From assembly GCF_055900595.2 (NCBI RefSeq), contig NZ_CM148325.1: a DNA stretch of 64,000 bases. One strand, given 5' to 3'. The translations under genes and the position numbers were made by a program. Shown piece by piece: positions 8,940 through 14,639 of this stretch (the stretch's first letter is position 1; each line of letters begins with the position of its first letter). The notes under the pieces were generated by a model that saw nothing but the letters and a program-made list of their open reading frames with translations, did not search any database and was not told the origin of the DNA.

Positions 8940-9296
8940 CTATAACATAACTCCGCTGGCAATAAGAAGTTTTGCCAGCTCCTCTGACGCCTGTAGACCA
9001 CTAATAAATTGAGAACGCAGGATCTCATTCCTACGCTCTAAATCCGCTTTAGAAAGAGATTTATTAGAGTATAAATCTTGTAGATGATTTCCTTTATCCA
9101 TGAAGGCATTAATAGCTTGTATTGCTGGAGCCGCCGGATCAGATGAACGCAATCTGCTTTCATTAAGATTAATTACTGCACTCAAAAATTCCTGTCTACT
9201 CTTTAATGTTTTAAATTCTATGTTTTTAGTATTTGCTCGGGCCTTATTATAGTAATAAAAATTATTGCTGATGTTCGCAAAATTATTCCAATCCAT
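8940..9296 (-). CDS. Hypothetical protein, 118 aa (AT-rich islet, gene 2)
   Basis: ORF track; tightly spaced with the neighbouring islet ORFs on the same strand; Asn/Lys-rich. Confidence 0.5.
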   Translation of the reverse strand: MDWNNFANISNNFYYYNKARANTKNIEFKTLKSRQEFLSAVINLNESRLRSSDPAAPAIQAINAFMDKGNHLQDLYSNKSLSKADLERRNEILRSQFISGLQASEELAKLLIASGVML

Positions 9297-9313
9297 TTGC
9301 TGCTGTTTCGTTG

Positions 9314-9961
9314 CTATATCATCGAGTAAATCTTGTAAATTTCTTTGAAGTCGTGGCCAGTACTACCTACCGTTTTACCAACATTTTCTGATTTAATCTT
9401 CTCTTTATATAATCCATTGAAATATTGAACTAAATCTTTAACAGCTACAGCTGACTTAGTCAGTTCTTCACCTTCTGAAAGGCCAAGTAGTTTTTGGGCG
9501 TTGTTTGCATGATCGAGCGCCTGATTAAGTAATATAATTTGTTTACTATCGTCAACATCCATATCCACCGTCAACAACTCCACATAGGAGCTCATACTGT
9601 TAACGACCTCAAGTGAAGCCAGTAGCTTTTGTTTTTCTGTGGTTGCCAATTGAACTTTAGTAACGTCTTTATACGATGTTTTGTCCCCTTTCTCTGATTG
9701 CATACATAAGGACTCTTTATTAGTATTATTTTCCATAATCGTTTCATAATCAGGTCGCAATGCACAATCCGGATTAGCCGCATAAAAATTAACAAGGAAG
9801 TTTTCACGAGAAGCATAGTATTGTTTAAAGAAACTTGCATTCGCCGCAACCGCCTTGTTACCCGCAGTAATAACAGTTTCAGCTTGTTCATTTTTCAATG
9901 TTTCAGTTGCACAACCTGAAAGCATTAACAGCGATAGAAATAATCCACTATATCTAATCAT
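9314..9961 (-). CDS. Putative lipoprotein, 215 aa (AT-rich islet, gene 1)
   Basis: N-terminal signal peptide with lipobox LLMLSGC; largely helical, Lys/Glu-rich mature region. Confidence 0.55.
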   Translation of the reverse strand: MIRYSGLFLSLLMLSGCATETLKNEQAETVITAGNKAVAANASFFKQYYASRENFLVNFYAANPDCALRPDYETIMENNTNKESLCMQSEKGDKTSYKDVTKVQLATTEKQKLLASLEVVNSMSSYVELLTVDMDVDDSKQIILLNQALDHANNAQKLLGLSEGEELTKSAVAVKDLVQYFNGLYKEKIKSENVGKTVGSTGHDFKEIYKIYSMI

Positions 9962-10130: not shown

Positions 10131-11006
10131 TTAACCGTTATTATTACGTCCACCAGAACGACGACCGCCGCTGACCTGGCTGTGACGTTTCACCGCACGA
10201 CGAATTTGATTCGCCTTCATACGACGACGGTCTTTTTCTACAGCAACTTTAGAGCTGGTTTCTGGCGGTAGTTCCACCAGCTCACGCAGATAGTTAGTCT
10301 GGGCAAGATCCAGCTCAGTCCAGCCACCGCGTGGCAGACCTTTCGGCAGTGGGATATCACCGTAACGCACGCGGATCAGACGGCTCACCTGCACACCAAC
10401 AGCTTCCCAAAGACGACGAACTTCACGGTTACGGCCTTCGGTCAGAGTAACGTTGTACCACTGGTTGATCCCTTCGCCGCCGCTGAACTTAATGGTTTTA
10501 AAGGCTGCCGGACCATCTTCCAGCTGCACGCCACGACTCAAATCACGCAGTTTCGCGTCGTCAACCTGACCAAATACACGCACGGCATATTCACGTTCAA
10601 CTTCACGGCTTGGGTGCATTAAACGGTTTGCCAGCTCACCGTCGGTGGTGAACAGCAGCAGACCACAGGTGTTAACGTCCAGACGACCTACGGCAATCCA
10701 GCGTGCGCCACGCAGCTTTGGCAGACGGTCAAATACCGTTGGACGCCCTTCCGGATCGTTACGGGTACACAACTCACCTTCCGGTTTGTAATAGGCCAGA
10801 ACGCGACAAATTTGTTCAGCGGACTCACGTACCGAAATCAGGTGACCATCGATACGGATTTTCAATCCAGGGGTAATTTCAACACGATCGCCGAGTTTAG
10901 CAATTTTGCCATCAACACTCACACGACCGGCTTCAATAATAGATTCGATTTCACGGCGAGAACCGTGGCCGGCACGCGCCAGCACTTTCTGTAGCTTTTC
11001 GCTCAT
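10131..11006 (-). CDS. rluB: 23S rRNA pseudouridine synthase RluB
   Basis: 291-aa ORF; S4 domain N-terminus ([21 protein letters not shown]), pseudouridine synthase core ([17 protein letters not shown]), basic RG-rich tail. Confidence 0.95.
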
Positions 11007-11218: not shown

Positions 11219-13113
11219 TTACCAGCCACCACCGCCTCCGCCACCCGCACCGCCGCCAGCACCACCACCGGAATAGCTTCGCCCCAACAAACTGGTATTG
11301 GCCCCCAGACTCAGGTGCATCTGTAATGAAAACAAAACGCCACTACGGGCAATTTCCGGGGCGTGAACAGCCGCTGTGAGTGACGGCGTGATACGTGCTG
11401 CCCATTCTTTTCCAAGGTTTGCCGAGACTGCCCAACCTAGCAACGCGTAATCCAGTTTCCGTGTTTCCCCTTTCCGCCGACGCCCACTGTGTGTTGCTGC
11501 CTCTTTACGCGCAAGATAGTTAACGATAGCTTCACCGTGGGCATAACGTTGCTGCCCAGTTTGGGTAAACTTTGGCAGAAAAATATACCCCATGCCAGTG
11601 AGATAACCGGTCAGGAAAACAGCGCTAAAATAACCCGCAGGCATATACCAGTAAAAGAATACATCTCCGACATTGATGTAGAGAGAGTAAAAAGCCACAC
11701 CTGAACAAATCAGTGGTAAAAACAAAGTGATGATTACACGATTAACGCAAGGCTTGTCATCATCGCGTGCAAACAAAAGATCAAGGGAACAAAATAAAAA
11801 AGGAAGAAGCCAGCAGATCATAATAAACATATCGCCTACCAGACTCATTCCTGCCCAGCCTACGGGACTCAGGTTACCGTAGAGAATGACCGCCAATATT
11901 GCCATTCCGCCCCATTGCAAAAACGCATCAGGTCGGTAAAACGAAGACTTTTTACGCGGCAGATAAAATTTCTGCATCCGTAAAAATGCCCTGCGTAAGA
12001 CTCTGTTACGCCCCCCGTAAGAACGACCTTGTCGCCTTTACGAAATAACGTTTCCAGTAATATCTGCTCTGCGGGCAGTAATACCGCATTATTCCTGGTC
12101 GCACCTTCATTAACACGGATCAGGGTTTGCTGATTTTTGTCATACTGATCTTCCAGATGAATTTTTCCTTTCACAATCAGATTTACGATATCGGCACAAA
12201 AACCTTTATCGTCGTAAACCAGCTTCGCATCGAGACGTAACATTCCGGGCGTGTAATCTGGCGGAATGACATCGGTTTCAATCACATCTACCGGCGTAAA
12301 TTGCGGCCTGCGCTTCCAGAGATATAACCATCCACACGCCAGGAACAGACACGGAAACCAAATTAACAACGATGACGTAGAGGGTAAAAGAAGATGGCTG
12401 AAAATATTCGTCGTTTGTGGTGCCGGGGCATTACCAAGTAAAGCGTGAGGCCAGCGGTAGAGGACCGTGAAATCTTCACGATAAAACGGATCGCGGGATT
12501 CAATTCTTCCGTCCTCAAGGATGCGGCCATTTCGATATGTGTCGCCCTCTTCTCCGGTAAAGAGATCGATTTCGCTAAATGGATTACCCGCAATTTTAGA
12601 GAACTGGAGAGAAAATCGGGTCTTATAAATTTCAAACGGCCAGTTGTTACCGGTCACGTTCCAGATTAGCAGATCAGAATCCCCCTCACGCAGGAAAGCA
12701 TTTTTAACCTGATAATGAATTTGATAATGATAGTCGCCCTGAGGCAAGAAACGTTGTTTATCGCCCACGACAATGCTCATTAACCCGATATGCCAGTCAA
12801 GATGCCAGGGTTCAGGAACGCCGTCACGGGTGACGCCAACAATACGATAGTTCAGCACTGCTGCGTCCCCATCAGGCTGCATCCAGAGTCGTGGTAAATC
12901 ACGATAAAATCCGTGCTTAATCTGCTGATTTCGCGCCTGAAAATGAATGTTCTCTTTGATGTCGAGCACCCCATCCAGTTGCAGGGTGGCTTCAACATCA
13001 AAGAGCGAGATCCCTTCTTCATAAAAAGGGATCTCCGTGTTTTTCGCATAACTCAACGAAGAGAAAAAAAGCCCAACTATCAACAGCAAAATGCAGCGAA
13101 ACTTCCCTGCCAT
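11219..13113 (-). pseudogene. yciQ: yciQ (DUF2207 membrane protein) split by a frameshift into a 414-aa N-terminal ORF (11869..13113) and a 252-aa C-terminal ORF (11219..11977)
   Basis: Two overlapping minus-strand ORFs in different frames that together approximate the ~631-aa K-12 YciQ; signal peptide at the N-terminus, glycine-rich C-terminal tail; frame change lies within 11869-11977. Confidence 0.6.
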
Positions 13114-13140: not shown

Positions 13141-13761
13141 TTATAAGAAAGGCTTTACATCACCTACGCCTTCACGTATCACGACTGGCGTATCATCGGT
13201 AAGATCGATAACTGTTGTCGGTTTCTGTCCGAGATAGCCACCGTGAATAATCAAATCCACCTGTTTTTCCAGACGGTCTTTAATCTCTTCCGGATCAGAT
13301 TCGGTAAATTCGCTGCCCGGCAGCATCAGTGATGTGGAAAGCATCGGTTCGCCCAATGCTTCAAGCAACGCCTGCGCAATCGGGTTAGAAGGCACACGCA
13401 TACCGATGGTTTTGCGTTTTTCCTGTAGCAGACGGCGCGGCACTTCTTTCGTCCCTTTCAGAATGAAGGTGTAGTTACCCGGCGTGTTGTTTTTCATCAA
13501 ACGAAACGCAACGTTATCGACAAATGAATAGGTCGAGAGTTCAGAAAGATCGCGACACATCAGGGTAAAGTTGTGACCGTCCGGCAGCTGGCGAATACGA
13601 CAAATACGCTCCATGGCGTTTTTATCTTCAATTTTACAGCCGAGCGCATAGCCGGAATCAGTTGGATAAACAATCACCCCGCCTTTACGCACGATCTCCA
13701 CCGCCTGGTTGATCAGACGTTGCTGCGGGTTATCAGGATGAATATAAAAAAACTGGCTCAT
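13141..13761 (-). CDS. yciO: YciO (Sua5/YrdC/YciO family) protein
   Basis: ORF track 13141..13797; start set at MSQFFYIHPDNPQ (206 aa), ATG confirmed at 13759-13761. Confidence 0.9.
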   Translation of the reverse strand: MSQFFYIHPDNPQQRLINQAVEIVRKGGVIVYPTDSGYALGCKIEDKNAMERICRIRQLPDGHNFTLMCRDLSELSTYSFVDNVAFRLMKNNTPGNYTFILKGTKEVPRRLLQEKRKTIGMRVPSNPIAQALLEALGEPMLSTSLMLPGSEFTESDPEEIKDRLEKQVDLIIHGGYLGQKPTTVIDLTDDTPVVIREGVGDVKPFL

Positions 13762-14639
13762 AATTCCCTCTCTGTGGTGTTCTGCGGCTGTTCCCATAGC
13801 TGCCAGACGCCTTCAACGCCTGCGGGCAGCCAGAGTTTACGACCCAGTTCGATCCACGGACATGGCTGATGAAAATCAGATCCTTGTGATGCCCATAAAT
13901 GATGCTGACGCGCAAGTGTCGCCAGCTGGGTGCGTTCATTGGGCGATTGCTGGCACTGCGCGACTTCCATCGCGTCGCCGTGGTGTTCGGCAAAATGCGC
14001 AACCAATCTTTTCAGCCATTTAGCACTAAGATTGTACCGCCCAGGATGAGCTAGCACCGCCTTACCGCCAGAATGATGAATGACATCAATAGCTTGTTCT
14101 ATTGTACACCACTGTGGCGGAACGTATCCGGTTTTCCCGCGCGCCAGATATTTTTTAAAGATATCCGCCATTGAACTGGCTTTGCCACATTCAACCAAGA
14201 AACGAGCAAAATGACCGCGCGTCACCGCACCGCCCTGCGCCAGTCGTTGCGCGCCTTCCAGCGCCCCAGGTATTTGCGCTTTTTCCAGTCTTTCAGCAAT
14301 TAACTTCGCCCGCTGATTGCGCCGTTCTGTCTGCTGCGCGAGGAACTCACACATTAGCGGATGAGTAATATCAATATTCAGCCCGACAATATGAATTTCA
14401 TGATTTTCCCAGACGGTGGATATTTCCACGCCAGGAATAAGATTCAGTGCCAGTCCTGAACGTGAAATTTCTTCTCTTGCTGGCGCGATTGCCGCTGTGG
14501 TGTCATGGTCGGTGATCGCCAGGGTGCCGACGCGCATCTCGACTGCACGGTGCACCAATGCTTCTGGCGTCAGGCAGCCATCGGAAGCTGTGGTATGGCT
14601 GTGCAGGTCATAAATCACTGCGTAATTCGTGTCGCTCAA
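13758..14639 (-). CDS. yciV: PHP-domain phosphoesterase YciV/TrpH
   Basis: ORF track 13758..14720; PHP motif YDLHSHTTASDG; a TTG start at 14639 gives the 293-aa length of the K-12 protein; stop overlaps yciO start. Confidence 0.85.
   Translation of the reverse strand: MSDTNYAVIYDLHSHTTASDGCLTPEALVHRAVEMRVGTLAITDHDTTAAIAPAREEISRSGLALNLIPGVEISTVWENHEIHIVGLNIDITHPLMCEFLAQQTERRNQRAKLIAERLEKAQIPGALEGAQRLAQGGAVTRGHFARFLVECGKASSMADIFKKYLARGKTGYVPPQWCTIEQAIDVIHHSGGKAVLAHPGRYNLSAKWLKRLVAHFAEHHGDAMEVAQCQQSPNERTQLATLARQHHLWASQGSDFHQPCPWIELGRKLWLPAGVEGVWQLWEQPQNTTEREL

What the first reader, a model, noticed from the sequence alone, without database searches (positions are those of the whole stretch)
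11869..11977. yciQ reading frame is broken into two overlapping ORFs
The conserved DUF2207 membrane protein gene is represented by a 414-aa N-terminal ORF and a 252-aa C-terminal ORF in different frames overlapping by about 100 nt, which points to a single-base indel. It is either a genuine pseudogene in this strain or a sequencing error in a region with short homopolymer runs (GCAAAAACG, GACTTTTTACG).
Basis: seen in the sequence. Interest (0 to 1): 0.3.

Follow-up and report, generated by a model that had tools for sequence, protein, structure and literature searches.

The report
Inherited frameshift pseudogene of yciQ
The yciQ membrane-protein gene really is broken, by loss of one G from a run of Gs, and the same break occurs in hundreds of independently sequenced strains of this Escherichia lineage, so it is an ordinary inherited pseudogene and not a sequencing error.

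Summary
On the minus strand, a 414-aa ORF (11869-13113) and a 252-aa ORF (11219-11977) overlap by 109 nt and together are collinear with the 631-aa YciQ (DUF2207) protein.

It lies in a G6 run on the gene strand (C6 on the + strand, 12011-12016), 34 nt outside the reported interval. Intact alleles read GGGGAGA there.

It is not a sequencing error. The exact 414-aa product is on 334 public contigs. Four independent assemblies are 99.95-99.98% identical to the window over 6.2 kb, and all carry G6.

The window fits Escherichia cryptic clade I. A sister sub-lineage carries G9 at the same site, which NCBI's PGAP annotation pipeline marks "frameshifted", with rare G8 and in-frame G10 variants.

Substitution patterns reject long neutral decay, so the breaks are young and probably independent slippage events. 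yciQ is dispensable: it is absent from 1442 of 5426 complete E. coli genomes.

Verdict: a genuine, lineage-wide homopolymer-slippage pseudogene. Ordinary, low interest.

The parts
11219..13113 (-). The whole yciQ pseudogene (1895 nt; intact alleles are 1896 nt), lying between yciO (13141-13797, -) and rluB (10131-11006, -).
   Evidence: collinear with annotated yciQ of E. coli at 94-98.7% identity, with the same neighbouring genes.
12011..12016 (-). The frameshift site: a G6 run on the gene strand (C6 on the + strand). Intact alleles have 7 nt here (GGGGAGA). The sister sub-lineage has G9, rarely G8 or G10.
   Evidence: alignment and coordinates; tract-length variants.
11869..13113 (-). N-terminal ORF of 414 aa. 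Residues 1-367 are collinear with YciQ (signal/TM1, DUF2207 N-terminal domain, TM2, part of the next domain). Gly368 is the codon altered by the tract, followed by 46 out-of-frame residues and a stop.
11872..12009 (-). Out-of-frame tail of the N-terminal ORF (VTESYAGHFYGCRN...STVT, 46 codons).
   Evidence: this is the translation downstream of the tract.
11219..11977 (-). C-terminal ORF of 252 aa. It corresponds to residues 380-631 of the repaired protein, with four hydrophobic segments and a Gly-rich tail. It has no Pfam match on its own, and I saw no convincing Shine-Dalgarno sequence before its ATG (manual reading of the sequence).
   Evidence: Gene callers in other assemblies start it at Met25 or Met44 instead.
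11869..11977 (-). It is a by-product of the upstream frameshift and holds no indel itself.

Best explanation
yciQ in this window is a genuine, inherited frameshift pseudogene.

Shown: in cryptic clade I (C-I), the codons that read ACG GGG AGA CGC in E. coli sensu stricto are a pure G run.

Inferred: two A-to-G substitutions created a G7 run, and replication slippage then removed one G in the window's sub-lineage (G7 to G6). The G7 intermediate was not observed.

Shown: translation leaves the YciQ frame after residue 368, runs 46 nonsense codons and stops at 11869. This cuts the DUF2207 C-terminal domain (PF20990) in two and removes four C-terminal hydrophobic segments and the Gly-rich tail.

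Shown: the lesion is fixed in the sub-lineage.

Inferred: it is young. It is tolerated because yciQ is dispensable in Escherichia.

Inferred: the sister sub-lineage broke the same tract independently (G10 to G9).
For: - One internal indel only, against intact alleles of K-12 type, B2 type and Escherichia sp. MOD1-EC7003. The window has G6 where they have GGGGAGA; E. whittamii has TGGTGGA.
- The exact 414-aa product is on 334 contigs and in 402 index blocks, including the complete genome AP025754.1, Escherichia sp. KS167_9B.
- Four independent assemblies are 99.95-99.98% identical over 6245 nt, with zero gaps, and all have G6.
- The sister sub-lineage has G9 in 8 complete genomes, which PGAP annotates as 'frameshifted', and in 1 metagenome contig; its product is on 58 contigs.
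- G10 (an intact 630-aa ORF) and G8 variants occur in DNA with no mismatch to G9 strains over 4.9 kb for G10. This shows the tract slips.
- Between the G6 and G9 sub-lineages there are 10 nonsynonymous and 12 synonymous changes. This rejects neutrality (binomial p = 0.0013) and fits omega of about 0.15, as among intact alleles. The breaks are therefore recent relative to the split.
- Dispensability: yciO and rluB are directly adjacent, with no yciQ, in 1442 of 5426 complete E. coli genomes. There is an IS1 insertion in the two lab strains listed, T7Express and BLK9, and O157:H7 strains match over only 85% of the query. yciQ appears in several metabolic-engineering strain-construction papers; from my own knowledge it is used there as a chromosomal integration site, but I did not read those passages.
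- The frameshift splits PF20990, which scores 41.3 bits in intact YciQ but 21.9 bits, below the cut-off of 33, in the 414-aa ORF.
Against: - Both sub-lineages are off by the same phase (G6 and G9 are both -1 mod 3). That could also mean a shared ancestral frameshift or a selected out-of-frame state.
- The C-terminal ORF is still fully open, with omega = 0.12 between the sub-lineages. This is what a young pseudogene looks like, but also what a gene still expressed in some way would look like.
- The inferred in-frame G7 ancestor was not found as an exact product in either background.
- No expression data exist here.
Confidence: 0.86

Rival explanations
1. Sequencing or assembly error: the genome really has an in-frame tract, and one G was dropped in a homopolymer.
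For: The lesion is in a homopolymer, the class of site where long-read consensus errors concentrate.
Against: The identical 414-aa product is on 334 contigs from NCBI, ENA and Logan assemblies. Four independent assemblies that differ from the window by 1-3 SNPs all have G6 and no gaps over 6.2 kb. No G7 product exists in this background. A 6-nt run is short for a systematic error.
Confidence: 0.01
2. Phase-variable contingency locus: the poly-G tract switches YciQ ON and OFF by slipped-strand mispairing, and the window shows an OFF state.
For: In the sister sub-lineage the tract is G9, with G8 and in-frame G10 variants. The G10 strains have no mismatch to G9 strains over 4.9 kb; the G8 contig was checked for its tract length only. 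The downstream reading frame is still intact.
Against: In the window's own sub-lineage only G6 was seen: 334 contigs, and none of the G4, G5, G7, G8, G9 or G10 products tested. By general knowledge, G6 is too short for high-frequency switching in a mismatch-repair-proficient enterobacterium. The tract is mid-gene (codon 367 of 631), and OFF dominates about 58 to 5 in the G9 lineage. G8 and G10 in short-read assemblies could partly be errors.
Confidence: 0.06
3. Recoding: a full-length YciQ is still made, by +1 ribosomal frameshifting or by RNA polymerase adding a G at the run.
For: Both sub-lineages need the same +1 correction, and the C-terminal part shows purifying selection between them.
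Against: No known +1 signal is visible. There is no stop or rare 'hungry' codon at the site, and the shifted frame runs on for 46 codons (my own reading of the sequence). Orthologues in E. coli sensu stricto, MOD1-EC7003 and E. whittamii are a single frame, so the frameshift is not a conserved feature. By general knowledge, G6 is shorter than the runs known to give productive transcriptional slippage. An in-frame G10 allele coexists.
Confidence: 0.02
4. Functional split gene: the 414-aa N-terminal and about 209-252-aa C-terminal polypeptides are both made and work together.
For: Both ORFs are open, and only about 12 native residues (368-379) are lost between them. Gene callers do call a downstream ORF.
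Against: The break falls inside one Pfam domain, PF20990. There is no convincing ribosome-binding site before ATG 11977 (manual reading). Gene callers disagree on the start: 209, 228 or 252 aa. The N-terminal piece carries a 46-aa nonsense tail.
Confidence: 0.04

Closest known systems
PGAP-annotated 'frameshifted' yciQ pseudogene in E. coli (cryptic clade I type) strains Z0117EC0005, AST85 and E200086
   Same: Same gene, same synteny, same poly-G tract and the same resulting reading phase, with 98.5-98.7% nucleotide identity.
   Different: Their tract is G9, not G6. The tail of their gene also lacks two Gly codons (GGTGGT). They belong to a different sub-lineage.
Other natural yciQ losses in E. 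coli sensu stricto: clean absence, IS1 insertion in T7Express/BLK9 lab strains, partial loss in O157:H7
   Same: Loss of the same dispensable gene. Absence is seen in 1442 of 5426 complete genomes.
   Different: The mechanisms differ (deletion or IS insertion rather than homopolymer slippage). I did not examine the O157 and IS1 cases beyond the hit table.
Homopolymeric-tract contingency loci (slipped-strand phase variation, as in Neisseria, Haemophilus and Campylobacter; general knowledge)
   Same: An intragenic poly-G run whose length sets the reading frame. G8, G9 and G10 all occur in the sister sub-lineage.
   Different: The window's tract is short (G6) and invariant in hundreds of assemblies. 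The tract is recent, mid-gene and mostly OFF. No switching has been shown.

Membership tests
YciQ / DUF2207 membrane protein family | Match to Pfam PF09972 (DUF2207 N-terminal domain) above the gathering score | tested here: met
   78.5 bits against a cut-off of 24.4, residues 35-175 of the 414-aa ORF.
YciQ / DUF2207 membrane protein family | Complete PF20990 (DUF2207 C-terminal domain) in one polypeptide | tested here: not met
   21.9 bits (cut-off 33) in the 414-aa ORF and no hit in the 252-aa ORF. Intact K-12 YciQ scores 41.3 bits over residues 284-535. The domain is cut by the frameshift.
YciQ / DUF2207 membrane protein family | Orthologous position between yciO and rluB | tested here: met
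Frameshift pseudogene by homopolymer slippage | An indel not divisible by three, inside a mononucleotide run, relative to intact orthologues, giving a premature stop | tested here: met
   G6 against a 7-nt GGGGAGA, with a stop 46 codons later.
Frameshift pseudogene by homopolymer slippage | The lesion is reproducible in independent assemblies, so it is not an artefact | tested here: met
   334 contigs carry the exact product, and 4 independent assemblies were checked at the DNA level.
Frameshift pseudogene by homopolymer slippage | Relaxed selection (dN/dS near 1) after inactivation | tested here: inconclusive
   omega is 0.24 between the G6 and G9 sub-lineages and neutrality is rejected. This fits young, independent lesions. 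Diversity within the G6 lineage is too low to test (1-3 SNPs per 6.2 kb).
Phase-variable contingency locus (slipped-strand mispairing) | Tract-length polymorphism, with both ON and OFF states, among otherwise near-identical isolates | tested here: not met
   In the window's sub-lineage only G6 was seen. The feature is met in the sister sub-lineage only: G8, G9 and G10.
Phase-variable contingency locus (slipped-strand mispairing) | A high switching rate within a clonal culture | not testable with these tools
   This needs read pile-ups or fluctuation assays.
Programmed frameshift / transcriptional slippage gene | The frameshift is conserved across orthologues and has a recognisable recoding signal | tested here: not met
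   orthologues outside C-I are a single frame. No stop or hungry codon is present at the site (manual reading).

The most novel reading that the evidence does not exclude
The poly-G run that arose in cryptic clade I yciQ acts as a young contingency switch. Slippage (G6, G8 and G9 OFF; G7 and G10 ON) would toggle production of a DUF2207 envelope protein. That would be a rare example of homopolymer-based phase variation in the E. coli lineage.
Probability: 0.06. Interest if true: 0.4.

Novelty: new member of a known kind. Interest (0 to 1): 0.1.

Why it matters
It matters mainly for annotation. The two ORFs should be annotated as one frameshifted yciQ pseudogene, not as two hypothetical proteins, and the assembly should not be "polished" at this site.

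It gives a simple candidate marker inside cryptic clade I: G6 against G9 at one tract.

It is one more sign that yciQ is expendable in Escherichia. It is also a small textbook case of point substitutions creating a slippery run that then destroys the gene. It opens no larger question.

Tried and rejected
- Scan of one genome per species with YciQ peptide patterns. It returned only two loci (Escherichia sp. MOD1-EC7003 and E. whittamii). These gave the ancestral state of the site but no broad survey.
- Metagenome scan for GGTCGTTCTTACGGGGGG. It gave three hits, two of them unrelated chance matches and one true yciQ, with G9. It did not yield a tract-length distribution.
- Exact look-up of ten hypothetical tract-length products. 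None exists in the window's background. Only G8 and G10 exist, in the sister background. An exact look-up misses any product that differs by even one residue elsewhere.
- The complete E. coli genome collection has no G6 genome (best match 98.8%). G6 evidence therefore had to come from the protein and contig index.
- The idea that the A5/T5 runs inside the overlap hold the indel was rejected.
- A shared ancestral frameshift (G6 changing to G9 or the reverse, by 3 nt) was considered. I judge it less likely than two independent -1 events, because neutrality is rejected between the sub-lineages and an in-frame G10 allele exists next to G9. It is not excluded.
- The literature on yciQ and DUF2207 gives no established function. 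One review table lists yciQ co-expression among strains used to express membrane proteins (PMC3120638). A Streptococcus mutans DUF2207 mutant was studied for stress tolerance and biofilm formation (PMC10457818, title and abstract only).

Full report
**Observation.** The ORF list shows two minus-strand ORFs: 11869..13113 (414 aa) and 11219..11977 (252 aa). They are in different frames and overlap by 109 nt, exactly as reported. The 414-aa ORF matches Pfam PF09972 (DUF2207) at 78.5 bits against a cut-off of 24.4. The locus lies between yciO and rluB, as annotated yciQ does in E. coli.

**Where the break is.** I aligned the window gene with intact 1896-nt yciQ alleles: K-12 type (L001), B2 type (L003), Escherichia sp. 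MOD1-EC7003 (L007) and E. whittamii (L008).
- There is one internal indel only.
- Intact E. coli alleles read ...CTT ACG GGG AGA CGC... (L-T-G-R-R). The window reads ...CTT ACG GGG GGC GTA....
- So a 7-nt GGGGAGA is replaced by a pure G6 run. This is C6 on the + strand at 12011-12016.
They are not involved.
- After residue 368 the ORF reads 46 out-of-frame codons and stops at 11869. The downstream ORF picks up the native frame at residue 380 of the repaired protein.

**Is it a sequencing error? No.**
- The exact 414-aa product is in the public protein collection on 334 contigs from NCBI, ENA and Logan. One of them is BDI50752.1, from the complete genome of Escherichia sp. KS167_9B.
- The contig index lists the product in 402 blocks.
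- Four independent assemblies (L012-L015) differ from the window by 1-3 substitutions over 6245 nt. They have no gaps, and all carry G6.

**What lineage this is.**
- Over 23 kb the window is 98.8% identical to only eight complete "E. coli" genomes, and 96.4-96.6% identical to the next-best listed.
- These figures match those given for cryptic clade I (C-I): more than 98.3% within C-I and more than 95.9% against E. coli sensu stricto (PMC10100065).
- The locus-tag prefix EsCd1 of the KS167_9B record is consistent with this. That reading of the prefix is my inference.

**The same tract in relatives.**
- All eight of those genomes, and one metagenome contig (L011), have G9 at the site.
- In the three genomes whose annotation I fetched, PGAP (NCBI's annotation pipeline) marks yciQ as a "frameshifted" pseudogene.
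- The 415-aa product of the G9 allele is on 58 contigs.
- I built the products expected for other tract lengths and looked them up exactly.
  - In the window's background, none of G4, G5, G7, G8, G9 or G10 exists.
  - In the G9 background, G10 exists as an intact 630-aa ORF on 5 contigs (L016, L017).
  - In the G9 background, G8 exists on 2 contigs (L019).
  - These were confirmed.
- The G10 loci have no mismatch to the G9 genome L002 over 4893 nt; the only difference is the one-base tract gap.
- So the longer tract slips by one base either way, or is occasionally mis-assembled. G6 is stable.

**Age and origin.**
- With frames repaired, the G6 and G9 alleles differ by 12 synonymous and 10 nonsynonymous changes, giving omega = 0.24. 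Intact alleles give 0.14-0.17.
- Under neutrality about 17 of the 22 changes should be nonsynonymous. The observed split rejects that (binomial p = 0.0013) and is compatible with omega = 0.15 (p = 0.17).
- Most divergence between the two sub-lineages therefore accumulated while the gene was under purifying selection.
- Together with the in-frame G10 allele, this favours two young, independent -1 slippage events (G7 to G6, and G10 to G9) over one old shared frameshift. This step is inference. G7 itself was not observed.

**Consequence.**
- The break falls inside the DUF2207 C-terminal domain. PF20990 scores 41.3 bits over residues 284-535 in intact YciQ, but only 21.9 bits, below the cut-off, in the truncated ORF. 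The 252-aa ORF has no hit.
- The truncated product keeps the N-terminal hydrophobic segment, the DUF2207 N-terminal domain and the second hydrophobic segment.
- It loses four hydrophobic segments (about residues 397-516) and the Gly-rich tail.
- I see no convincing ribosome-binding site before ATG 11977 (manual reading). Gene callers disagree on the downstream start.
- I conclude loss of function. No expression data were available.

**Why it is tolerated.** yciQ is dispensable.
- yciO and rluB are directly adjacent, with no yciQ, in 1442 of 5426 complete E. coli genomes.
- T7Express and BLK9 lab strains carry an IS1 in it, and O157:H7 strains match over only 85% of the query.
- yciQ turns up in several metabolic-engineering strain-construction papers. 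I believe it serves there as a chromosomal integration site, but that is from memory; I did not read those passages.
- No function is established. A review table lists yciQ co-expression among strains used for membrane-protein expression (PMC3120638). An S. mutans DUF2207 mutant was studied for stress tolerance and biofilm formation (PMC10457818; title and abstract only).

**Rivals.**
- Sequencing error is excluded, as shown above.
- Phase variation is conceivable for the G9 sub-lineage but is not supported for the window. G6 is invariant there, it is short, and it sits mid-gene.
- Programmed recoding lacks any signal, and the frameshift is not conserved in orthologues.
- A functional split gene is unlikely, because the cut is inside a domain and the downstream start is poor.

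**Verdict.** This is a real, lineage-wide frameshift pseudogene caused by homopolymer slippage. It is ordinary biology, useful for annotation and perhaps as a sub-lineage marker. Interest is low.

Noticed in passing
window 8940-9961 (-): The hypothetical gene next to rluB starts with a lipoprotein-like signal (MIRYSGLFLSLLMLSGC). It is also split, into ORFs of 215 aa and 118 aa. The sister C-I genome has the same 1-nt gap against a divergent intact allele, and PGAP marks it 'frameshifted'. This is a second, apparently older pseudogene right beside yciQ.
   Followed up: partly
window ~23300 to beyond 48000: Similarity to the C-I relatives ends at about 23330, after the yciG/yciF/yciE/ompW region. 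What follows matches lambdoid prophage genes (gpJ, tape measure, portal). GC skew is strongly negative (-0.13 to -0.23) and GC reaches 0.59.
   Followed up: partly
yciO-rluB interval in E. coli generally (L004 4061-4160): yciQ is a presence/absence polymorphism. In 1442 of 5426 complete E. coli genomes, yciO and rluB are directly adjacent with a spacer of about 100 bp.
   Followed up: yes
window 11219-12010 vs 12017-13113 (-): Synonymous divergence between the G6 and G9 sub-lineages is about 7 times higher in the C-terminal part of yciQ (dS 0.059) than in the N-terminal part (dS 0.008). This hints at a recombination breakpoint inside the gene.
   Followed up: no
window 11222-11260 (-): The Gly-rich C-terminal tail of YciQ varies in length. 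The G9 sub-lineage lacks GGTGGT (two Gly codons), and MOD1-EC7003 and E. whittamii also differ in this region.
   Followed up: no
whole window: Runs of five or more G or C are strongly strand-biased: 48 C runs against 8 G runs on the + strand. Of the 30 runs lying only in long minus-strand ORFs, 29 are G on the coding strand. Eleven runs of 6 or more occur in the window, so a G6 run is not rare in itself.
   Followed up: partly
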